Of a stretch of DNA of 64,000 nucleotides, positions 7,151-47,820 are shown piece by piece. Numbering within the stretch: position 1 is the first letter of the stretch; each line of letters opens with the position of its first letter. The notes beneath the pieces are model-generated. The model had not been told where the DNA came from and did not search any database. It saw nothing but the letters and a program-made list of their open reading frames with translations. A program made the position numbers and the translations under genes. The stretch lies in NCBI RefSeq assembly GCF_009914755.1, contig NC_060926.1; one strand, given 5' to 3'. The stretch is from the human T2T-CHM13v2.0 reference genome, Homo sapiens.

Positions 7151-7879
7151 TATTTTTAAAGGGAAAAAACAAGCCACAGATAGTTTTGTTAGCACTGTAA
7201 AACAGTCTTTAACATTCATCTGTTTTATGTTCTATTTGTCTCAAAAAATGTGCTTTGTTCTTTCCCATACTTTCTGATATCAGGATAGGAAATCAATACC
7301 AAACAAAACAATTCCATTCATTTTTTTCCACAGCTTGGTTTTCACTGTTGTTGCCTAACATTTATTGTTGCATTCACTCTTTCTCTCTGTTTTCCATCAC
7401 CTAAAAGTAACTTTGTGTTCTTTATCTCTTCTAAGAAAACTTGGTAATGAGCCTTTAATGTGACGCCTGGACCACCCTTGTTTTGATTTTGTGTTATGGG
7501 TGTTCTTTTGTGTGATCGTTCTCATGGAGAGACCTTGTGAAGCTGGGCTTTTCCAGTGGTTTGTCAAAATGGAAATAGATATTTAACAAACCAAACACAA
7601 AATGACCTTGTTCCAGGAATGCATCATTTCTGAGAAAACACTACCTTTTCCAACTAGATATTGTGAATATTACTCATATTATCTTTTACTCCCTTTTATT
7701 AAAACTGTATTTTTTTTTACACTTTTGTGTAACTCGGGTAATGAAATGTGAAACTAAGTGATTGCCTACCAGTTACAATTGATGTTAACGATGCTACTGG
7801 GAGGCCACCCCTACAGTGGCTGCGCCAAGTCTAGGGACATGCTAGCTTTGCTAAGTTACATGAGATTGCCTACATACTA

Positions 7880-35029: not shown

Positions 35030-36187
35030 AATTCTGACCCAGAAGCAGGTCGTCTACAAATGGTTTAGCACCAGGTTCCCCACGAACGTGTGTTGCATGA
35101 CGGGCAAGGAGGCCACCTTTCCAGCCACACCCTTCCCAGGAGGAAGGGCACTCTGCACCGGACCCAGTCCTAGCACATGGTGGGGCACACCCCACCAAGG
35201 GTGAGGCAGCCCACCAGCGGGGGTGGGGAACCGGCTAGCCAAGGCCAGCCAAGGCCAGCCAAGGCCAACCAAGGCTCCACGGTGCTGCTGTATCCTTCCG
35301 CCTGGGCAGGATTCTGACTTAGAGGCGTTCAGTCACAATCCAACAGACCGTAGCTTCACCCCATTGGCTCCTCAACCAAGCACATGTCTGAACTTGCCAT
35401 TCCTCTCATGCTGAGCAGGATTACCATTGCAACAACACACATCACGGAGGGTAAAACTAACCTGTCTCACTACGATCTAAATCCAGCTCACATGCCCTAT
35501 TAGTGGGTGAACAATCCAATGCTTGGTGAATTCTACTTCACAATGATAGGAAGAACCAACATTACAGGATCAAAAAACATCCCTATGAATGCTTGGCCGC
35601 AACGAACCAGTTATCCCCTGTGGTAACTTCTGATACCTCCTGCTTAAAAACGTCAGAATGATCGTCAAAGCCCAGCTTTCAGTCTGTATTCGCACTGAAA
35701 ATCACGATCAAGCGAGCTTTTGCCCTTCTGCTCCACAAGAGGTTTCTGTCCTCCCTGAGCTCTCCTTAGGACACCTGCATTACCGTTTGACAGGTGTACT
35801 ATCCCAAACTCCCCACCTGGCACTGTCCTCGGGACGGGTCAACACCCGGCCGGCGTGCAGCTGGGCACTTGGCGCCAGAAGGGAGGGCCCCTAGGGGCTC
35901 ACCCCCTGCCTCACCAGGTCAGTGAAAAAACGATCAGAGTAGTAGTATTCCATGGGCAGCCCACAGGACCCCACCCCACCCCCTCACGGGGATAGGGGGG
36001 CACTGGGGACCTCCCACTTATTCTACACCTCTCATGTCTCTTCACCATGCCAGACTACAGTCAAGCTCAACAGGTTCTTCTTTCCCCACTGATTCCACCA
36101 ACCCCATTCCCTTGGCTGTGGTTTCACTGGATAGTAAGTAGGTAGGGACAGTGGGAATCTCATTCATCCATTCACGCACGTCACTAG

Positions 36188-36221
<34 letters not shown>

Positions 36222-38014
36222 CCATAGTTACTTCCGCCATTTACCCATACTTCATTGAATTTCTTCATTTTGACATTCAGAGCACTGGGCAGAAATCACT
36301 TTGCAACACCCCCCGAGGGCCTTCGCGATGCTTTGTTTAAACAGTTGGATTCCCCTGGTGCACACAGTTCTATAAGTCGGCTGCTAAGCACCGGCGGAGG
36401 TGCTGCATGGAACCGTGGCCCCTGTGGCGGGGACCAGCCCGCGGCCCGCCACCTCCACGGAGGGGGGGACAGGAGACAGATGGGGCTGCGGGGGAGGTGG
36501 GGGAATGAACCACCCCGCCTGCCACCCACTGACCCAATCACTCCCTGCCCACGCTGACACGCATGACAGCGCAGAGCGAGACAGGACACGCCAGCACCCA
36601 CTGGGCTCCCCATGGGTGGCCACAACTGGGGCAATCCATGGGAAGGGCCCAGCTTGTGTCCAGAGTCACCACCACCACCAGCACCCCCTCACGGGAGATC
36701 ATGCCCTGCCACTGGGGCTGTATGGCCACTGCCACCCCTCCGCCCCCACACACCACCTCCATAGAGGGGGAGGACAGAGAGAGAGGGGGCGGGGGAGGGA
36801 GTGAGCAGCACGCAGGTTGGGGCAGGGGAGGGCCACAACAGGCATTCCTGGGGCTTGGGGGGGGCAGCGGGGCCTCGTCGAGCGGCGGCACGCACCCAGC
36901 CCAACCGACCCAGCCCTTACAGCCAATACTTATCCCGAAGTTATGGATCCGGCTTGAGGACTTCCTTTACCTACATTGTTCCAACATGCCAGAGTCTGCT
37001 CATCTCGGAGACCTGCTGCAGACATGGGTATGGCCCTGCGTGAGACTTACACCGTCTACCCTGGATTTTCAAGGGCCAGCCAGAGCTCACCAGATGCCAC
37101 CAGAACCACGATGCTTTCCAAGGTACAGTCCCCTCTCTCGGGGTGAACCCATTCCAGGGCGCCCTGCCCTTCACAAAGAAAAAGAGAACCCTCCCCAGGG
37201 CTCCCACATGCTTCTCCAGGGTCAGTCACATTACCGCACTGGACGCCTCATGGTGCCCATCTCCGCCATTCTGGATTCGGGGATCTGAACCCAACTCCCT
37301 TTCAATCAGCTGAGGGCAACAGAGGACATCACCCATCCCTTCGGAATGGCACTCACCCATCTCTCAGGACCAAATGAACCATGTTCAACTGCTGTTCACC
37401 TGGGACCCATGTTCAACTGCTGTTCACATGGAACCCTTCTCCACTTCGGCCTTCAAAGTTCTCATTTGAAAATTTGCTACTACCACCAAGATCTGCACCT
37501 GTGGCCGATCCACCTGGGCCCATACCCTAGGCTTCAAAGCTTACCGCAGCGGCCCTCCTACTCCTCCCGGCGTAGACTCCGTGGGGCTGCAGGGGAGGGG
37601 GGGGAGGAGGGGACGGGAGGACCCCCACTGCACTCACACGGGTGTACTGCCCCTGCCGCTCCCGTCCACTCTCAACTGCTGTCAACGGCCGGGTATGGGC
37701 CCAACGCTCCAGCTCCATCCATTCTCAGGAGTAGTTGATTTGGCAGCTGAGTTGTTACACTCCTTAGCGGATTCCAACTTCCATGGCCACCATCCTGCTG
37801 TCTATATCAACCAACACCTTTTCTGAGGTCTGATGAGCATTGGCATCGGGCATCTTAACCCGGCATTTGGTTCATCCCACAGTGCCAGTTCTGCTTACCA
37901 AAAGTAGCCTACGAAGCACTCGCATTCCACGCCTGGCTCCACGTCAGCCAGCCAGGCTTCTTACCCATTTAAAGTTACAGAATAGACTGAGATCGTTTCG
38001 GCCCCAAGACCTCT
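35030..38014 (-). pseudogene. 28S rRNA pseudogene fragment (3' ~3 kb; 5' portion and extreme 3' end missing)
   Basis: Conserved 28S cores present (GACCCAGAAGCAGGTCGTCTAC; GGCATTTGGCTACCTTAAGAGAG; GAGATCGTTTCGGCCCCAAGACCTCT), with heavy CpG decay and indels. Confidence 0.97.
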
Positions 38015-39180
38015 TCCCGCTGAAATGTGGGTGTAGTTGGAGAGTAGCTGGGACAGACAGGAGGGTCCGTAAGTGGTGGGGGTGAAGAGGTGAGAGAGAC
38101 TGGTGAGGGTCTCACTGAGGTCTGTGAGTTTGTAGGTGTTTCTGGGGTGTGAGAGACCTACTCCCGCTGAAATCTGGGCATAGTTGGAGAGTAGCTGGGA
38201 CAGACAGGAGAGTCATTGATGGCTGGGGGTGAGCTGCTGGATGATGGCAGTAAGAACATATGGTATATTATTCATGAATGAGGTGACTGTGAAGAATCTC
38301 CAGAGGAGGACACGGGAGAGCACAATGACATGAGTGATTGTCCTGCTTGGCTAGGAAAGGGAAATGTAAAGTTATGAAATTCTGTTGATGAGGGATGTGA
38401 GAGTGGTGAAGCCCTGCGGGATGATGTAGAGTACTTCCACATCCCTGGTGAGGAGCTGCCTCTTGGGTCTGAGTTTCTGGGAGGGGAGAGGGAGAAGCTG
38501 GGTGAGACAGGTATGAATCTTGAGGAGTCAGGGCTGGGGGACTGCTCATATTCTCCCGAGACTTGTGAGTCTCTGGGGGACTCCTGGGTGCATGGGGCTG
38601 ACTCCCGCAGAAACCTCTGGATGGCTGGAGAGTAACTGGGAGACACAGGAGAGTCCCTGAGGCCTGGGGGGGAAGAGATGAAAGACATAGGGGAGGAGCA
38701 CCACAAGGCTCGTGAGTTTGTAGGCGATTCCTGGGTGTGGGGGGCTGATGCCAGATGAAATCTGGGGTTGTTTGGAGAGTAGCTGGGAGACACGGGAGAC
38801 TCCCCGAGAGCTGGGGGTGAGCTGCTGGGTGATGGCAGTAAGAACATGTGGTATATTATTGATGAACGTGGTGACTCTAAAGAATCCCCAGAGGAGGACA
38901 CTGGAGAACCCAATGGCTTCACTGATTGCCCATCACGGTGAAGAAAGGGAAATGGGAGCTTGTGGGATTCTGCTGATGACAGAGGTGAGTGTGGTGAAGC
39001 CCTAGGGGATGGTGAATGGTAGCTCCGGATCCCTGGTGAGGAGCTTCCTCTTAAGTCTGAGTTTCTGAGAGGGGAGAGGGAAAAGCTGGGTGAAGCTAGC
39101 ATGGCTCTTGGGGAGTCCGGGCTAGGGGACCATTCATAAGAAGAGCCAGACAAGATCCTACTTTTCTTAGGTGCAGACAT
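38015..39180 (-). pseudogene. ACRO1-repeat Ser/Pro ORF copy 1: premature stop at codon 303, truncated by the 28S junction
   Basis: ORF 38272-39180 is colinear with 42846-45083 at offset 5903. TCA>TGA at 38272-38274, and the intron donor is mutated (GT>CT at 39351). Confidence 0.8.
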
Positions 39181-39714
39181 GATTAGGAAACCTGCAGCTC
39201 CTGGGGACCCCTACAAATTTTCTAACCCGCAGAATGAAGGAGTCTGTGTGTATGTGTGTGTATGTGTGTGTGTGGTGTGAGGTATGTGCTCCTTAAGAAA
39301 ATGGAAATAAACCAACCAATGAGACAGACAGACAGACACAGATTCACTTAGCCAAGTGTTCTGTCCTGTCCTCTGAATCCACTTCCAAGTCACAAGATGC
39401 TGTAAGCTCCAAGTCCACGCAGAGCCCGCAAAACGCTCCGGCCGCTGCTACGCTGGGCGAAGATCTGAGTACAGCCCTGCCAGGGTGGGTTTAAATAGCC
39501 TCGGGCACAGCCTAGCAGCGGAAAGGGCAGAGCTTCACTCTTCCTTCCTATCAGTCACCCCCAACTTTCCCAGGCTACACCTAGTAGGAAACTGTTCTCC
39601 TGATTTGATTTCATGTGCCACATTTGGGACAATCTAAGAATTTACAAGTTTTCTTGGCCAAATACATTATGAATTAAATGCACTGAAACACTGAAAACCA
39701 TCTAGTGGTTCTGT

Positions 39715-41020
39715 GGTTCTCACGCTGTGGTTCTGACACCAGCAGCATCCTTGCAACCCTCAAACCCCGGAGATCCACAGATTTGTGTTGTAACAAGCCC
39801 TCCCACTGACCCTGATGCATGGCAGTTTAAGAATTACCCGTGTAAGCGAAAAGACTTTGAAGAAAAAGTGGAGATATGCGTTGTATAAACTTTTTTTTGC
39901 TCTGGAACCACATAGAGACTTGGGAGCCAGTTGGGTGGAGCATTCGTTGGATGAGGGTGCTTGGGTTAGGAATATCAAGGTGTGGCTCCAGATAATTCAA
40001 TCATCTCATTAAGTTTCCAGTTATGCTAATCTGTTTTAAAATTCAGTTTGTGTAAATTCTTTTACTCAGACTGAGAATGGCAAATCCTCAACCCCAATTT
40101 CCAGGGAGGGTTGAGAGCCTCAGGTTGAGTTGATCACCAATAGCCTATGGTTTAACCCATCATGCCTATAGAATGAGGTCTCCATAAAAACCCAAAAGGA
40201 CTGGGTTTAGAGAGCTTCTGGATAACACTTCCTGGATGGTAGTGCTCCCCTCCCCACATGGTGGGCCCAAAATCTTTTTTCTGAATTTTTTGCAATATCC
40301 ACTATAATAAAATGGTAAATGGAAGTCTTTCCCTGAGTGCCGTGAGCTCTTCCAGCAAATTAATGCAACTAAAACTGGGAGTGGTGGAAACCTGATTTAT
40401 AGCCAGTTGCTAAGAAGCACAGGTAAAATAACGTAGGGCTTCCCATTGTTGTTAGAGTGGGAGGCCAGTCTTGAGGGACTGAGCCCTTTGGAATCTCATG
40501 CTATGTCCCAGTAGATAGCGTCATCATTGAATTAGAAGACACACATATGTTGAGAATAATTTTTCTAGTCATTTGCTGTATGTCTTATTTACAATATGTA
40601 ATCAAATTCTTCATCCTGACCTTATGGCACCTGGGTTGAGAACCATGATTTGAACAAAAAATTGGTCTGTCACTTTCTCAGTTTGAAACTTTATTTTGCC
40701 ACTAGCGTTTTGTTATAGTTTTTTCGTTTTGTTTTGTTTCCTTTTGTTTCTAAGTTCTGGGGTATATGTGCAGGATGTGCAGATTTGTTACAAAGGTAAA
40801 CGTGTGTCACGGTAGTTTGCTGAACCTGTCAACCCATCACCTAGGTATTAAGCCCAGCATGCATTAGCTGTTTTTCTTAGTGCTCTGCCTCCCGAAAGGC
40901 CCCAGTGTGTGTTATTCCCCTTCCTGTGTCCATGTGATCTCCTTTTTCAGCTCCCATTATAAGTGAGAATGTGGTGTTTGGTTTTCTTTTCCTGGATTAG
41001 TTTGCTGAAGATAATGACTT
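39715..41020. mobile_element. Composite-unit TE tract copy 1: MER5A-like ~39715-39840, MER21-like LTR ~40080-40540, L1PA 3' end (-) ~40745-41020
   Basis: Recognisable motifs: AACAAGCCCTCCC..TGATGCA; GGTTGAGTTGATCACCAAT...CTCCATAAAAACCCAAAAGGAC; GTGCAGGATGTGCAG..TTGTTAC. Family names and boundaries are approximate. Confidence 0.7.
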
Positions 41021-42170: not shown

Positions 42171-42845
42171 GGGGGAAACTTACGTGGCACACTCTCATCG
42201 AGACCACGGCAGACATAGTGAATGAGAAAAAGGTGAGTAAATATCTGAAAGGGAGGCAGAAACAGAAAGAATGAAAAGCCCTGTGAATGGAGAGAGAGAG
42301 AAAAGGGAAAATGGTCCTATTTACAAATGACAGATCTGAAACTGGGGCTCACATCAACAGTGTCACTGCCAGGGAGGAGGGGCATGCTAGCCATGTCACC
42401 GGTAGTGTCACCCGCAGGGACGCTGACATGCTGGAGGTTCGTGTCAGCATGGGCTCTGGCAGCCATGTGGGCCAGCAGGAGGGTCCCGCTGCACAGCTGT
42501 GGGGTGAGGATAGCCTGGGTGGTGATATCAGCCATTACAGGGGCCTCTTCTGCTGGCAACAGTGTGACAGTAGCAAGTAGATGGACAGGCCTGTGTGTGA
42601 GGATGGAATGCAGGAGGGGCTCTTCTGCGGCTGGGTGTGGGGCCCTCACCAGAAATGTGGAGAAATGGCCAGGTAACTGTGTCATGTTGGCTAGTAGATT
42701 GGCCAGGGCTTCGAACTGAAGGACAATAACGGGGAGTAGCTGTCAGGCCCTGGGAGTGTCTGAGTGTAAGTGGAGATGGGTTTGGGGTCACTGAGGGATA
42801 CGTGGGAGCCATCCCTGTATAGATACAGGTCATAGGGAGATAGTC

Positions 42846-45083
42846 TCATGAGGCCTGTGAGTGTCTAGGGTTCTCCTGGGTGCCTGGGGCTGACTGCGGC
42901 AGAAATCTGGGGAAGGCTGGAGAGAAGCTGGGAGACACAGGAGAGTCCCTGAAGGCTGGGGGTGAAGAGGTGAAAGAAATGGGGGAGGGGTGCAGTAAGG
43001 TCCGTGAGTTTGTAGGTGATTCCTGGGTGTGGGAAGCTGACCCCAGGTGAAATCTGGAGATGGTTGGAGAGTAGGTGAGAGAGACAGAAGAGTCCCTGAG
43101 GGCTGGGGGTGACAACATGAGCGAGACTGGGGAGTAAGTCAGTGAAATTGGTGAGTTTGGTGGTGTGCCCTGGGTGCCTGGAACTGACTCCAGCTGGAAT
43201 CTAGAGAAGTTTTGAGAGTAGCTGAAAGAGACACAAGAGTCCCTGTGGGCTGAGGGCAAAGAACTGAGAGAGACCAGGGAGGATCTCAGTGAGGTCTGTG
43301 AGTCTGTAGGTGATTCCGGAGTGTAGGAGGCTGACTCCGGCTGAAATCTGGGCGTGGCGGGAGAGTAGCTGGGACAGACAGGAGAGTCCCAGGGGGCTGG
43401 GGGTGAAGACGTGAGAGAGACTGGGGAGTAACTCAGTGAAACTGGTGAGTTTGATGGTGACTCCGGGGTGCCTGGAACTGACTCCCGCTGAAATCTGGGC
43501 ATGGTTGGAGAGTAGCTGGGACAGACAGGAGAGTCCCTGAGGGATGGTGAAGACATGACAGAGACTGGAGAGTAATTGAGTGGAATTGGTGAGTTTGGTG
43601 GTGATTTCTGGGTGCCTGGAACTGACACCAGCTGAAATCTGGGCGTGGTTGGAGAGTAGCTGGGACAGACAGGAGAGTCCATGAGGGCTGGTGAAGACAT
43701 GAGAGAGACTGGGGAGTAACGCAGTGAAATTGGTGAGTTCGGTGGTGATTTCTGGGTGCCTGCAACTGACTCCCGCTGAAACGCGGGCGTGGTTGGAGAG
43801 TAGCTGGGACAGACAGGAGAGTCCCTGAGGGTTGGGGATAAAGGCGTGCTAGAGACTGAGGAGTAATTCAGTGAAAGTGGTGAGCTTGGTGGTGATCCCT
43901 TGGTTCCTGGAACTGACTCCCGCTGAAATGTGGGCATGTTTGGAGAGTAGCTGGGACAGACAGGAGGGTCCGTAAGGGCTGGGGGTGAGGACGTGAGAGA
44001 GACTGGCCAGGATCTCACTGAGGTCTGTGAGTTTGTAGGTGTTTCTGGGGTGTGGGAGACCGACTCCCGCTGAAATCTGGGCGTAGTTGGAGAGTAGCTG
44101 GGACAGACAGGAGAGTCATTGATGGCTGGGGGTGAGCTGCTGGATGATGGCAGTAAGAACACATGATATATTATTGATGAATGAGGTGACTGTGAAGAAT
44201 CTCCAGAGGAGGACAAGGAAGAGCATAATGACATGAGTGATTGTCCTGCTTGGTTAGGAAAGGGAAATGTAAAGTTGTGAAATTCTGTTGATGAGGGATG
44301 TGAGAGTGGTGAAGTCCTGCGGGATGATGTAGAGTACTTCCACATCCCTGGTGAGGAGCTGCCCCTTGGGTCTGAATTTCTGGGAGGGGAGAGGGAGAAG
44401 CTGGGTGAGGCAGGCATGAATCTTGAGGAGTCAGGGCTGAGGGACCGCTCATAATCTCCCGAGACCTGTGAGTCTCTGGGAGACTCATAGGTACATGGGG
44501 CTGACTCCCGCAGAAACCTGGGGATGGTTGGAGAGTAACTGGGAGACACAGGAGAGTCCATGACGGCTGGGGGTGAAGAGAGGAAAGACATAGGCGAGGA
44601 GCACCGTGAGGCTCGTGAGTTTGTAGGTGATTCCTGGGTGTTGGGGGCTGACTCCAGATGAAATCTGGAGTTTTTTGGAGAGTAGCTGGGAGACACGGGA
44701 GACTCCCCGAGAGCTGGGGGTGAGCTGCTGGGTGATGGCAGTAAGAACATGTGGTATATTATTGATGAACGTGGTGACTCTAAAGAATCCCCAGAGGAGG
44801 ACACGGGAGAGCCCAATGGCTTCATTGGTTGCCCATCACGGTGAGGAAAGGGAAATGGGAGCTTGTGGGATTCTGCTGATGACAGAGGTGAGTGTGGTGA
44901 AGCCCTAGAGGATGGTGAATGGTAGCTCCAGGTCCCTGGTGAGGAGCTTCCTCTTAAGTCTGAGTTTCTGGGAGGGGAGAAGGAGAAGCTGGGTGAGGCT
45001 AGCATGGATTTTGGGGAGTCCGGGCTGGGGGACCGTTCATAAGAAGAGCCAGACAAGACCCCACTGTTCTTAGACGCAGACAT
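42846..45083 (-). CDS. Putative 745-aa Ser/Pro-rich repeat protein encoded by ACRO1 satellite (CTD-like SPSYSPT motifs); may be a truncated pseudogene
   Basis: Uninterrupted 2238-bp ATG-initiated ORF with 11 SPVxPSYSP-type repeats. Monomer spacings are 147 or 144 bp. Upstream promoter and intron signals are present. Expression cannot be shown from sequence. Confidence 0.5.
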   Translation of the reverse strand: MSASKNSGVLSGSSYERSPSPDSPKSMLASPSFSFSPPRNSDLRGSSSPGTWSYHSPSSRASPHSPLSSAESHKLPFPFPHRDGQPMKPLGSPVSSSGDSLESPRSSIIYHMFLLPSPSSSPPALGESPVSPSYSPKNSRFHLESAPNTQESPTNSRASRCSSPMSFLSSPPAVMDSPVSPSYSPTIPRFLRESAPCTYESPRDSQVSGDYERSLSPDSSRFMPASPSFSLSPPRNSDPRGSSSPGMWKYSTSSRRTSPLSHPSSTEFHNFTFPFPNQAGQSLMSLCSSLSSSGDSSQSPHSSIIYHVFLLPSSSSSPPAINDSPVCPSYSPTTPRFQRESVSHTPETPTNSQTSVRSWPVSLTSSPPALTDPPVCPSYSPNMPTFQRESVPGTKGSPPSSPLSLNYSSVSSTPLSPTLRDSPVCPSYSPTTPAFQRESVAGTQKSPPNSPISLRYSPVSLMSSPALMDSPVCPSYSPTTPRFQLVSVPGTQKSPPNSPIPLNYSPVSVMSSPSLRDSPVCPSYSPTMPRFQRESVPGTPESPSNSPVSLSYSPVSLTSSPPAPWDSPVCPSYSPATPRFQPESASYTPESPTDSQTSLRSSLVSLSSLPSAHRDSCVSFSYSQNFSRFQLESVPGTQGTPPNSPISLTYSPVSLMLSPPALRDSSVSLTYSPTISRFHLGSASHTQESPTNSRTLLHPSPISFTSSPPAFRDSPVSPSFSPAFPRFLPQSAPGTQENPRHSQAS
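42860..44740. repeat. ACRO1 147-bp satellite array (copy 2); partial copy 1 at 38015-38840
   Basis: GGAGAGTAGCTGGGACAGACAGGAG recurs at ~43360, 43507, 43651, 43795, 43942 and 44089 (147/144/144/147/147 bp). The 147-bp period and rDNA-adjacent context match ACRO1. Confidence 0.88.
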
Positions 45084-45359
45084 GATTAGGAAACCTGCAG
45101 CTCCCAGGGACCCCTACCAATTTTCTAACCCCCAGAATGAAGGAGTTTGTGTGTGTGTTTATGTGTGTGTGTGTTTTTGTCTGTTGTGACATATGTGCTC
45201 CTTAAGAAAATGGAAATGAACAAACCAATGTGACAGACAGAGATTTACTTACCCAAGTGTACTGTCCTATCCTCTGAATCTACTTCCAAGTCGTAAGACG
45301 CTGTAAGCTCCAGGTCCACGCTGAGCCGGCAGAACGCTCCAGCCGCTGCTCTGCTCTGC

Positions 45360-45465
45360 GAAGATCTGAGCTCGAGGCCCCCCAACAGGGCGGGTTTAAA
45401 TAGCCTTGGGCGCAGCCTGGCAGCGGAAAGGGCGGAGCTTCACTCCTCCTTTCCATGAGTCACCC
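45360..45465 (-). promoter_or_regulatory. Putative Pol II core promoter of the ACRO1 ORF (paralogue at ~39460-39560)
   Basis: TATTTAAA at 45402-45395, GC box GGGCGGAGC 45430-45438, AP-1 site TGAGTCA 45456-45462, Inr-like TCAGATC with A at 45367. In copy 1 the TATA-to-Inr distance is 31 nt (39497 to 39466). Confidence 0.55.

Positions 45466-45614: not shown

Positions 45615-47820
<2,206 letters not shown>

What the first reader, a model, noticed from the sequence alone, without database searches (positions are those of the whole stretch)
42846..45465. The ACRO1 'satellite' unit reads as a spliced Pol II gene encoding an RPB1-CTD-like repeat protein
Seen on the minus strand: AP-1 site, GC box, TATTTAAA (45402), Inr-like site (45367), a ~115-nt non-coding exon ending at GG|GTAAGT (donor 45252), a 158-bp intron ending CTGCAG| (45095), and ATG at 45083. 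This is followed by 745 open codons with 11 repeats of SPV(C/S)PSYSP(T), including the permuted CTD heptad SPSYSPT, plus secondary (N/R/S/T)YSP motifs. Measured monomer length variants (147 vs 144 bp) keep the frame, and copy 1 has no frameshift over 302 codons. Established: the RPB1 CTD consensus is YSPTSPS, and S/T-P motifs are CDK/MAPK/DYRK substrates. I recall ACRO1 being noted for CTD-mRNA similarity, so that resemblance itself may not be new. Inference: ACRO1 arrays are the coding exon of a multicopy primate gene family producing a disordered CTD-mimic phosphoprotein. Caveat: the polypyrimidine tract is weak and the TATA-Inr spacing in this copy is 35 nt.
Basis: partly seen in the sequence, partly recalled or inferred. 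Interest (0 to 1): 0.85.

Follow-up and report, generated by a model that had tools for sequence, protein, structure and literature searches.

The report
Long protein frame inside ACRO1 satellite
The so-called ACRO1 satellite is the repeated middle of a long serine/proline-rich reading frame that sits behind its own promoter in about 200 human repeat units and is also kept open in marmoset and whales, but the copy in this window is a truncated relic.

Summary
The stretch is one unit of the ~6-kb ACRO/ACRE macrosatellite. A 30-mer spanning the acceptor and ATG occurs at 224 places in CHM13.

This copy's 745 codons are a truncated version. Other copies hold 945-1090 codons from the same ATG. Here a CGA>TGA change removes the tail.

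TATA box, Inr, a DUX4-type motif and an ATG-free leader are conserved across copies. The GT donor and AP-1 site are not.

Among human copies, amino-acid changes match neutral expectation. Stop-creating changes in the first 340 codons are fourfold too few (3 vs 12.0), and small indels are scarce.

The whole frame is colinear with an 832-aa marmoset protein. Its N-terminal part matches whale proteins, so it is not primate-only.

The CTD likeness is real but local, already published, and poorly kept in marmoset. ACRO1 RNA in cleavage embryos and after DUX4 is also published, and one 2025 preprint calls the array a putative gene.

Best reading (0.55): a fast-evolving, disordered protein gene amplified as a macrosatellite, with this copy probably dead. 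Translation is unproven.

The parts
45898..45908 (+). DUX4-type motif TAATTCAATCA, antisense to the gene, about 825 nt upstream of the ATG and about 500 nt upstream of the TATA box
   Evidence: the window has 3 matches to TAAYBBAATCA against 0.46 expected, and two of them lie at the same place in the two ACRE copies. The motif sits at the equivalent position in 16 of 17 and 5 of 5 paralogues. The motif itself is recalled, not taken from a call.
45456..45462 (-). AP-1-like TGACTCA, specific to this copy
   Evidence: One search gives the position. In one search it is present only in this copy and chr20_29.992M among 16 homologous copies. The others read TGACTCG or TGACTGA.
45430..45438 (-). GC box GCTCCGCCC
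   Evidence: One search gives the position. It is unchanged in most of the 16 homologous copies aligned, with single-base changes in four.
45395..45402 (-). TATA box TATTTAAA
   Evidence: The exact string is present in 15 of 17 and 5 of 5 copies.
45363..45370 (-). Inr-like CTCAGATC, with A(+1) at 45367
   Evidence: It lies 35 nt from the TATA box here. Most copies lack 4 G in between, which gives them 31 nt.
45253..45367 (-). Putative 115-nt non-coding first exon, or the 5' part of an unspliced leader
   Evidence: In 12 of the 15 copies tested there is no ATG anywhere between the TATA box and the frame's ATG.
45095..45252 (-). Putative 158-nt intron, GT...AG in this copy. It holds (TGTC)n and (CA)n runs and this copy's only upstream ATG.
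   Evidence: The donor is GT in only 3 of 21 copies. The acceptor has 40% pyrimidines. The upstream ATG is at -109.
42846..45083 (-). 745-codon frame from the conserved ATG to a premature TGA. Layout: 14 aa, then two ~195-codon units each made of a 113-aa head plus ACRO1 monomers, then the 49/48-codon array.
42874..44135 (-). ACRO1 147-bp tandem array, which is the middle of the frame
   Evidence: period 147, 8.6 copies. The name ACRO1 comes from the finding and the papers. It was not tested against a repeat library.
42846..42848 (-). Premature stop TGA where intact paralogues read CGA (Arg)
   Evidence: One search places the CGA>TGA change on the branch shared with chr20_29.992M. Searches show the others read ...SQASRDYLPM...
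42402..42845 (-). Remnant of the conserved C-terminal tail, still in frame and broken by three further stops. It holds the ACPSTCYCHT motif.
   Evidence: read-through translation; 101-aa ORF at 42528..42833; tail conserved across species.
38272..40003 (-). Second, truncated ACRE copy in the window. DUX4-type motif at 39993-40003, TATA at 39490-39497, ATG at 39178-39180, and a 302-codon frame.
   Evidence: Homology to full units ends about 1.1 kb into the frame, beside the annotated 28S pseudogene in the hub table.

Best explanation
The stretch is one unit of the ~6-kb ACRO/ACRE macrosatellite.

Each unit is built like a Pol II gene. It has a DUX4-type site, a GC box, a TATA box and an Inr. These are followed by a leader of about 300-350 nt that usually holds no ATG. 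Next comes a single long frame whose repeated middle is what repeat libraries call ACRO1, and a conserved ATTAAA lies about 300 nt after the stop.

The frame encodes a fully disordered, Ser/Pro-rich protein of about 950-1090 aa in array copies. The family is uncharacterised and older than primates. Selection has kept the frame open and in register, while hardly constraining which residues it holds.

The likely mode of action is inferred, not shown. DUX4 switches the units on at the 4-8-cell stage, and aberrantly in FSHD muscle or tumours. The first AUG is then translated into a heavily phosphorylatable S/T-P polymer.

The window copy is a relic in the 2q21 duplication. A CGA>TGA change removes the conserved tail, which carries three more stops, so this copy is probably a pseudogene. 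Its GT donor and AP-1 site are private mutations, and the intron is not a family feature.
For: Copy number and frame length:
- The acceptor+ATG 30-mer occurs at 224 places, in tandem units 6.2-7.4 kb apart.
- 16 of 29 distinct copies keep 828 or more open codons from the same ATG. Seven reach the same final stop.

Promoter and leader:
- TATA box in 20 of 22 copies and DUX4-type motif in 21 of 22.
- TATA-Inr spacing is 31 nt in most copies.
- 12 of 15 copies have no ATG in a leader of about 310-360 nt, where shuffles average about 3.
- ATTAAA after the stop is present in 12 of 12.

Frame-specific constraint among the 29 human copies, first 340 codons:
- Nonsense changes are 3 against 12.0+-3.3 expected (1 of 500 simulations as low).
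- The other two frames show 4 vs 7.7 and 7 vs 8.5.

Indels:
- The frame has 4 small indels in 2985 columns. By my reading of the list, the flanks have about 32 in 4093 columns outside microsatellites (Fisher p=7e-5 per column, p=0.004 per substitution).
- The two head units align over 555 nt at about 78% identity with no indel.

Cross-species:
- A marmoset protein of 832 aa is colinear with the human frame. It is 70% identical over residues 1-420 with one gap, and 74% in the tail.
- A neutral walk to that divergence gave 0 stop-free outcomes in 200 trials at each of five levels.
- Whale proteins share the N-terminus, the head and the first monomer.
- Unnamed homologues P0040, P0043, P0094 and P0027 share the IIYHMF head and/or the ACPSTCYCHTLA..RR tail.

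Expression:
- ACRO1 RNA peaks at the 4-cell stage (PMC6545021, passages).
- It is reported as DUX4-induced (PMC8990217, PMC12776069 and PMC11467316, passages citing Hendrickson 2017).
Against: - No direct evidence of capped, full-length mRNA or of translation was available here.
- Amino-acid change is neutral. Over 12 full units, synonymous/nonsynonymous counts are 164/407 against 162/401 simulated. Over 29 copies they are 83/215 against 82/208. Inside the acrocentric clade they are 53/144.
- Human-marmoset identity of 70% is at or below what I expect for neutral change (plus a recalled divergence of about 0.11).
- In the array, the stop deficit is not frame-specific (4 vs 9.8 in frame 0, 3 vs 8.2 in frame 1). 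In the tail, stops are in excess (8 vs 3.5).
- Other frames can also stay open for hundreds of codons. Examples are P0026, P0021 and the 68-aa frame +1 stretch in the marmoset model.
- The proteins from other species are gene predictions. Some may have been seeded by likeness to RPB1, and I could not see their DNA. The species of P0040, P0043 and P0094 are unknown.
- No Pfam family matched, and AlphaFold gave no fold for the tail (pLDDT 51).
- Boots et al. found that sense ACRO1 inserts of 1.1-1.4 kb almost abolish reporter RNA. They also found no stable ACRO1 transcripts in HeLa cells.
- RefSeq annotates no gene here (hub table).
Confidence: 0.55

Rival explanations
1. Non-coding satellite RNA. 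The unit is transcribed, induced by DUX4, but acts only as RNA. One example is the Pol II-binding, self-attenuating aptamers described by Boots et al. On this reading the long frame is a by-product. A stop-free, C/A-rich 147-bp monomer, possibly descended from CTD-coding DNA, was amplified and repeatedly re-amplified in each lineage.
For: - The sense strand is stop-poor in all three frames (11-17 stops per 967 codons against about 45 for random sequence).
- Few new stops have arisen in any frame inside the young central array.
- Residue change is neutral.
- Acrocentric copies are 3% or less apart in the first 1,020 nt of the frame. Their 2 nonsense changes against 6.7 expected is only marginal (p=0.04).
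- Dispersed copies decay at about the neutral rate (10 nonsense in 385 events).
- RNA aptamer and cis-silencing data are published.
- The monomer aligns ungapped and in frame with 7 heptads of POLR2A CTD DNA. Identity is 82 of 147 nt, against 77.1+-1.9 for a synonymous-shuffled CTD. That would explain an inherited open frame.
Against: - It does not explain the frame-0-specific lack of stops in the non-array N-terminal third across 29 copies.
- It does not explain the indel deficit.
- It does not explain the ATG-free leader.
- It does not explain why the head and the non-repetitive tail stay in the same frame in marmoset and in the unnamed distant homologues.
- It does not explain the 0 of 200 stop-free outcomes in neutral simulations.
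Confidence: 0.33
2. On this view it is a spliced gene whose product works as a mimic of the RNA polymerase II CTD, for example as a decoy substrate or scaffold for CTD kinases, phosphatases and readers.
For: - A search of the PDB sequences found 13 RPB1 chains and only one other, insignificant match (an ATP synthase chain, E 1.6). The RPB1 E-values run from 4e-10 to 0.08, with high compositional bias.
- 49 aa equals 7 heptads, and the monomer aligns in frame with CTD DNA.
- This copy has 78 S/T-P sites.
- Boots et al. reported 23 of 49 identical residues.
Against: - The Pfam CTD-repeat model does not match at E<=1.
- Only about two heptads per 49-aa monomer are CTD-like. Exact SPSYSPT occurs once in this copy.
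- Most marmoset and whale monomers lack the PSYSPT core.
- The GT donor is not conserved.
- This copy lacks the family's conserved tail.
Confidence: 0.08
3. The frame belongs to a transposable element, for example an ERV-derived ORF behind the MER21B LTR. On this view, likeness between species reflects the same element family and not a host gene.
For: The composite unit is described as ACRO1 plus L1PA10, MER21B and L1MB8 pieces (preprint 10.64898/2025.12.22.696095, passages). A TATA box, a leader and a splice donor ahead of a first ORF resembles the layout of a retroviral 5' end. That resemblance is my own recollection.
Against: - No Gag or any other Pfam family matched.
- In the human genome the promoter plus 5' frame occurs only within ACRE units, not as a dispersed high-copy element.
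- The big protein library holds only 88 relatives.
Confidence: 0.04

Closest known systems
D4Z4 macrosatellite with the DUX4 gene, and other gene-bearing macrosatellites
   Same: These are tandem units of several kb, each carrying its own promoter and one long frame. They sit on acrocentric short arms and in pericentromeres, are hypomethylated in the germline, and are expressed at the cleavage stage (for ACRO; the D4Z4 side is recalled).
   Different: The ACRO frame has no recognisable domain and evolves neutrally at the residue level. Its product is unproven. It appears to be a DUX4 target, not a DUX gene. No DUXC-like sequence is detectable in the unit.
RPB1 (POLR2A) C-terminal heptad repeat domain
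   Same: Both have S/P/T/Y-rich repeats. The 49-aa monomer equals 7 heptads and aligns in frame with CTD-coding DNA. RPB1 chains account for 13 of the 14 PDB matches listed, and the one other match is insignificant at E 1.6.
   Different: The Pfam model does not match. Only part of each monomer is heptad-like. There is no polymerase body. The motif is not kept in marmoset or whale monomers.
ACRO1 RNA aptamers that bind Pol II (RAPs; Boots et al. 2020, PMC7714431)
   Same: This is the same DNA, and by inference the same strand. Their paper already noted the CTD-like in-silico translation and the 6-kb 'ACRE' unit.
   Different: They treat it as RNA and call ACRO1 primate-only. In the passages I read, they do not describe a start codon, a promoter, a full-length frame or homologues in other orders.
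Predicted proteins named 'DNA-directed RNA polymerase II subunit RPB1' in marmoset and Rice's whale, and a gray-whale hypothetical protein
   Same: The marmoset model shares the human frame's layout along its whole length. The whale models share only the N-terminus, the head and the first monomer.
   Different: These are machine names given by likeness, and nothing is known about the proteins. The whale models run on into the C-terminal exon of a DUX4-like (DUXC) gene. The human unit does not.

Membership tests
ACRO1 satellite / ACRO (ACRE) composite macrosatellite | 147-bp tandem monomers embedded in a ~6-kb higher-order unit that is itself tandemly repeated on acrocentric short arms and a few other sites | tested here: met
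   TRF gives period 147. Units are 6.2-7.4 kb apart on chr13, 14, 15, 21, 22, 3 and 4, with single copies on chr1, 2, 19 and 20. This matches the descriptions.
ACRO1 satellite / ACRO (ACRE) composite macrosatellite | Match to the Dfam/Repbase ACRO1 consensus | not testable with these tools
   No repeat library was on hand. The name rests on the finding and on the papers.
RPB1 CTD heptad repeats (Pfam RNA_pol_Rpb1_R) | Match to the curated heptad-repeat model | tested here: not met
   No Pfam family matched at E<=1 for the window frame or the 1044-aa chr22 frame, nor at E<=0.1 for six homologues.
RPB1 CTD heptad repeats (Pfam RNA_pol_Rpb1_R) | Descent from CTD-coding DNA, shown by nucleotide likeness beyond what the shared residues explain | tested here: inconclusive
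   In-frame identity is 82 of 147 nt. It is 77.1+-1.85 for a synonymous-shuffled CTD (maximum 85), 62.4+-0.9 for codon-order shuffles, and 58-61 off frame.
Protein-coding gene | Frame kept open and in register between species | tested here: met
   The marmoset 832-aa model is colinear with one gap in 420 residues. Whale and unnamed homologues are also found. Caveat: these are predicted proteins and their DNA was not seen.
Protein-coding gene | Deficit of frame-breaking changes among copies | tested here: met
   N-terminal third: nonsense 3 vs 12.0 expected in frame 0 only. Small indels are scarce. This was not met in the tail (8 vs 3.5) and was not frame-specific in the array.
Protein-coding gene | Fewer amino-acid-changing than silent changes (dN/dS below 1) | tested here: not met
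   Synonymous/nonsynonymous counts equal the simulated neutral values. Only the two head units within one chr3 copy show a weak synonymous excess, 42 vs 33.3+-3.4.
Protein-coding gene | Evidence of mRNA and translation | not testable with these tools
   No expression data were on hand. Papers report ACRO1 RNA, not protein. Searches for ACRO1 with 'open reading frame', 'Ribo-seq' and 'coding gene' turned up only the one-line preprint remark read.
DUX4 target | DUX4 double-homeobox motif near the start site | tested here: met
   An exact TAAYBBAATCA lies at a fixed place in 21 of 22 copies. It is about 500 nt upstream of the TATA box, so a different start site is possible.
DUX4 target | Binding and induction by DUX4 | not testable with these tools
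   This is reported second-hand for ACRO1 RNA. The primary paper (Hendrickson 2017) is not held.
   The donor reads GT in 3, GC in 13 and AC or CT in 4 of 21 copies. One further copy gave no match. The acceptor AG is conserved but purine-rich.

The most novel reading that the evidence does not exclude
ACRO1 is not a satellite in the usual sense. It is the expanded coding repeat of an old placental-mammal gene that has been overlooked because it sits in unassembled repeats.

The gene is tied to the DUX system in two ways. It is physically joined to DUXC in baleen whales. In humans it carries a DUX4 site and is induced by DUX4.

About 200 human copies would together produce, at genome activation, a burst of a CTD-like, heavily phosphorylatable disordered protein. 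That protein could affect Pol II regulation or nucleolar and acrocentric chromatin. It could also be made wrongly in FSHD muscle and some tumours.
Probability: 0.2. Interest if true: 0.85.

Novelty: new member of a known kind. Interest (0 to 1): 0.6.

Why it matters
If the frame is translated, one of the most acrocentric-specific human repeats is a gene family of about 200 copies. It would be switched on at embryonic genome activation and by DUX4. That adds an unstudied product to both the zygotic genome activation and FSHD programmes. It could also be a source of tumour-restricted peptides, since ACRO1 RNA is reported in plasma vesicles of Ewing sarcoma patients.

The finding also changes how copy-number changes in ACRO arrays should be read. 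These changes are seen between generations.

Homologues outside primates contradict the published view that ACRO1 is primate-only. They also give a way to test constraint.

For this window alone the result is modest: it holds a decayed, truncated copy.

Tried and rejected
- **Census of all 224 units.** The survey therefore rests on 29 copies. The share of intact units genome-wide is unknown.
- **ACRE as a relic of the DUXC array.** tblastn of the whale DUX4-like protein against 22 units and the window gave nothing below E=4. Rejected at this sensitivity.
- **Pfam.** Scans of the human frames and six homologues found no family.
- **ESM Atlas.** No usable hit.
- **AlphaFold on the tail.** With a 10-row alignment, pLDDT was 51 and there was no secondary structure. 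No fold search was made.
- **Pairwise Nei-Gojobori dN/dS.** Values were too noisy (0.5-3), and off-frame controls were equally scattered. I replaced this with event counts on a tree tested against simulations.
- **First 29-copy run.** It was spoiled by one wrongly cut copy and by unmasked rearranged ends. It was redone.
- **Hendrickson 2017.** Not held.
- **Supplements of PMC12746033.** They hold no text on ACRO1. The gene name behind 'putative protein coding gene' could not be seen. Boots' supplementary figures were also not seen.
- **The 2026 DUX-family paper.** Term searches of it found nothing on a second ORF in DUXC arrays.
- **Long-read DUX4 isoform paper (PMC12057663).** The term search found no mention of T2T, and the passages cite GENCODE v39. 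It does not mention ACRO1.
- **Bacterial promoter scan.** Irrelevant to a human locus.


Full report
**Observation**

- AP-1-like TGACTCA at 45462-45456
- GC box at 45438-45430
- TATTTAAA at 45402-45395
- Inr-like CTCAGATC with its A at 45367
- TTGG|GTAAGT with the donor at 45252
- CTGCAG| ending at 45095
- ATG at 45083

The frame 42846..45083 has 745 codons. TRF finds a 147-bp array at 42874-44135.

Small corrections apply to the motif counts. Exact SPV[CS]PSYSP occurs 7 times, not 11, and SPSYSPT occurs once. The acceptor is purine-rich.

**What the stretch belongs to**

The promoter plus the first 980 nt of the frame recur at 88-96% identity on chr20, 19, 22, 3, 14, 15, 4 and 21. A second copy lies in the window itself at about 38197-39560.

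A 30-mer spanning the acceptor and the ATG has 224 places in the genome with up to 2 mismatches, and none in the reversed control. Most lie in tandem arrays with periods of 6.2-7.4 kb.

This is the unit that papers call ACRE or ACRO. It is a 6-kb composite of ACRO1 with L1 and MER21B pieces, and it is highly specific to acrocentric short arms (passages).

**The frame in other copies**

I read 29 distinct copies from the homologous ATG.
- 16 stay open for 828 or more codons. Ten were seen whole at 863-1090 codons, and six run off the end of the fetched locus.
- Seven reach the same final stop.
- One of these, at chr2:161.74 Mb, is a 358-codon version with an in-frame loss of the whole central array.
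- The rest are broken at 156-745 codons.

The window copy is among the broken ones. Its TGA at 42846-42848 is CGA in the intact copies, and the change is shared with a chr20 copy. The tail continues in frame behind it but carries three more stops.

The protein layout is as follows:
- 14 residues at the N-terminus
- two ~195-residue units, each a 113-residue head followed by about 1.7 ACRO1 monomers
- an array of 49- or 48-residue monomers
- three degenerate monomers
- a non-repetitive tail of about 160 residues

**Signals around the frame**

Conserved features:
- The exact TATA box is in 20 of 22 copies.
- The Inr, the acceptor AG and the ATG are conserved in the aligned copies, and the GC box in most, with single-base changes in four.
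- Most copies lack four G residues present here, so their TATA-Inr spacing is 31 nt, not 35.
- In 12 of 15 copies no ATG lies between the TATA box and the frame's ATG. The leader is about 310-360 nt, and shuffles average about 3 ATGs, with 1-5% of them at zero. The window copy has one upstream ATG, inside the putative intron.
- A match to the DUX4 motif (recalled as TAAYBBAATCA) sits at -823 to -879 from the ATG in 21 of 22 copies. The window has 3 matches against 0.46 expected.
- An ATTAAA about 300 nt after the stop is present in 12 of 12 full units.

Features that are not conserved:
- The AP-1-like site is present in 2 of 16 copies.
- The GT donor is present in 3 of 21 copies. It reads GC in 13, including the copies with intact frames, and AC or CT in 4. 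One further copy gave no match.

The intron is therefore not a family feature. It is also not needed to reach the start codon.

**Is the frame kept by selection? Human copies**

Stop counts by frame. Over ATG..+2900, copies whose frame is intact there have 0 stops in frame 0. The other sense frames have 11-17 and the antisense frames 42-99. The strand is stop-poor in general. In the young central array, new stops are rare in every frame.

Substitution counts on 12 full units. I counted changes on a tree and compared them with the same changes placed at random.
- Synonymous 164, nonsynonymous 407 and nonsense 12.
- Simulated: 162, 401 and 19.7+-4.4.
- Residue change is thus neutral. It is also neutral inside the acrocentric/chr3/chr4 clade, with 53 synonymous, 144 nonsynonymous and 2 nonsense against about 6.7 expected.

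Split by region:
- The N-terminal third has 0 nonsense against 6.8 expected.
- The array has 4 against 9.8, but frame 1 shows a similar 3 against 8.2.
- The tail has an excess, 8 against 3.5.

All 29 copies, first 340 codons. This set was not chosen by frame status.
- 302 changes were counted.
- Synonymous 83 vs 81.9 and nonsynonymous 215 vs 207.9.
- Nonsense 3 vs 12.0+-3.3, matched or beaten by 1 of 500 simulations.
- The other two frames show 4 vs 7.7 and 7 vs 8.5.

Indels:
- The frame has 4 small indels in 2985 columns (two of 3 bp and two of 1 bp).
- Seven large length differences are of about one or two monomers: 144, three of 147, 288 and 291 bp are in frame, and one of 149 bp is not.
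- By my reading of the list, the flanks have about 32 small indels in 4093 columns outside microsatellite and homopolymer runs. Fisher p is 7e-5 per column and 0.004 per substitution.
- Substitutions are also about 30% sparser in the frame.
- The two head units align over 555 nt at about 78% identity with no indel. They show only a weak synonymous excess in one copy.

Taken together, there is a frame-specific shortage of frame-breaking changes in the N-terminal part and no constraint on residues. The dispersed copies, including this one, decay roughly neutrally.

**Other species**

Marmoset:
- The word-indexed protein search returned an 832-aa marmoset protein, which its source names 'DNA-directed RNA polymerase II subunit RPB1'.
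- It is colinear with the human frame from the first Met to the tail. It is 70.2% identical over residues 1-420 with a single gap, and 74% over the tail.
- About 68 residues match the human +1 frame, so the register is lost and regained there.
- I mutated the human frame neutrally at five levels from 0.08 to 0.16 hits per site, with 200 trials at each level. Each level gave 6.6-12.3 stops on average, and none of the trials was stop-free. Reaching about 72-75% residue identity needed 0.14-0.16 hits per site. The model is simple and has no CpG term.

Wider search:
- The exhaustive search of 1.84 billion representatives found 88 relatives.
- Many are near-identical to the human frame and come from short contigs in non-human records. 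This fits the human contamination reported for ACRO1.
- Several are translations of other frames.

Whales:
- The most distant relative, by its source's name, is a gray-whale hypothetical protein of 598 aa. A 633-aa Rice's whale relative is again named RPB1.
- They share the start, the head (FPFP.H..GQS ... SI[IM]YHMF ... PAL.DSP...SYSP) and the first monomer with the human frame. The phmmer E-value is 4.9e-4 against the whole library. BLASTP gives 4e-7.
- They then carry their own repeat array.
- They end in sequence 94% identical to the C-terminus of a whale DUX4-like protein.

Unnamed homologues:
- P0040 (355 aa), P0043 (575 aa) and P0094 (540 aa, from a 2675-bp contig) combine head-like sequence, monomers and the Cys/His tail motif. 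P0027 (191 aa) covers only the last monomer and the tail. The motif reads ACPSTCYCHTLA..RR..NGR.
- tblastn E-values against human units are 3e-46, 2e-39 and about 5e-5 for the first three.

These are predicted proteins and I could not see their DNA. With that caveat, the same frame persists far beyond primates, contrary to the statement.

**The CTD likeness**

- Pfam's heptad model does not match.
- The PDB sequence search listed 13 RPB1 chains, with E-values from 4e-10 to 0.08 and heavy compositional bias. The only other match was an insignificant ATP synthase chain at E 1.6.
- I located POLR2A's CTD exon on chr17. A 147-nt monomer aligns to it ungapped and in frame across seven heptads at 82 of 147 nt.
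- The controls gave 62.4+-0.9 for codon-order shuffles, 58-61 off frame, and 77.1+-1.85 for a CTD with synonymous codons shuffled.
- Descent from CTD-coding DNA is therefore possible but not shown.
- The likeness, and that idea, were published by Boots et al. in 2020 (abstract and passages).
- Most marmoset and whale monomers lack the PSYSPT core. This argues against CTD mimicry as the conserved role.

**Structure**

AlphaFold on the tail with ten homologues gave pLDDT 51 and no secondary structure. The product would be disordered throughout.

**What is already in print**

- The 147-bp monomer, the 6-kb unit, Pol II-binding RNA aptamers, cis-silencing by sense arrays and the absence of stable HeLa transcripts are in PMC7714431.
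- A 4-cell expression peak is in PMC6545021.
- Hypomethylation in spermatogonial stem cells and sperm, with RNA rising in embryos, is in PMC5832720.
- DUX4 induction is reported second-hand in PMC8990217, PMC12776069 and PMC11467316.
- Acrocentric specificity is in preprint 10.64898/2025.12.22.696095.
- ACRO1 RNA in Ewing sarcoma plasma vesicles is in PMC11060741.
- Searches for ACRO1 with 'open reading frame', 'Ribo-seq' and 'coding gene' found nothing further on a start codon, promoter, full-length frame, translation or non-primate homologues.

**Verdict**

ACRO1 is the repeated middle of a promoter-equipped, cross-species frame whose integrity, though not its residues, appears to be preserved. 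I put a real, fast-evolving disordered-protein gene family at 0.55. A purely RNA-level element with an incidental frame is at about 0.33.

The splicing model and the CTD-mimic function are not supported. The window's own copy is a truncated relic.

Noticed in passing
window 35785-40003, compared with L032 (chr20:29.98 Mb): The window's first ACRE copy loses homology to full units about 1.1 kb into the frame, next to the annotated 28S pseudogene. A chr20 copy breaks at the same alignment column and is 96% identical over the first 1,020 nt of the frame. The chr2 and chr20 loci therefore look like duplicates of one two-unit block of ACRE plus an rDNA fragment (hub table).
   Followed up: partly
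whole window: The window holds rDNA pseudogenes (5.8S, 18S, 28S), ACRE units, CDC27P1 and ANKRD30BL together. This looks like a relic of an acrocentric short arm or pericentromere at 2q21. It fits the preprint's remark that off-acrocentric ACRO copies mark formerly acrocentric chromosomes. The ZNF285CP pseudogene beside it (hub table) suggests this segment may share ancestry with the chr19 copy, since ZNF285 is a chr19 gene as I recall it (for the chr19 copy).
   Followed up: no
L039 (chr2:161,738,900-161,743,500): This lone copy on the long arm of chr2 keeps the promoter, the DUX4-type motif, the start and the canonical stop. It has lost the whole central array in frame, leaving 358 codons. 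That is the same compact layout as the unnamed distant homologue P0040 at 355 aa.
   Followed up: partly
P0090, P0092, P0093 (whale proteins): Two independent whale gene models join the Ser/Pro-rich frame to the C-terminal activation-domain exon of a DUX4-like (DUXC) gene. The two must therefore lie next to each other on the same strand. Whether this is a real isoform or a prediction artefact is open.
   Followed up: partly
P0001-P0003 and many of P0005-P0091: Public non-human records (sources 'ena' and 'lgn', contigs of 2-5 kb where shown for P0001-P0003) hold ORFs 86-100% identical to the human ACRE frame. Others are translations of its other frames. This is most simply human DNA contamination, as described for ACRO1 in PMC6581058.
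   Followed up: no
full ACRE units, about 0.9-1.0 kb downstream of the stop (alignment columns 7177-7284): A (TTCC)n run of variable length lies on the gene strand, which is (GGAA)n on the other strand. This is the kind of repeat bound by ETS fusion proteins. The Ewing sarcoma paper found ACRO1 RNA raised in patients' plasma vesicles but not induced by EWS:FLI1 in HeLa cells.
   Followed up: no
ACRE units, substitution spectrum: Transitions and transversions are nearly equal among inferred changes. Summing the twelve change types printed gives 892 to 860. Within the frame the ratio is 107:74 in the N-terminal third and 160:149 in the array. This is unusual for primate point mutation. It may reflect gene conversion between monomers or alignment noise.
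   Followed up: no
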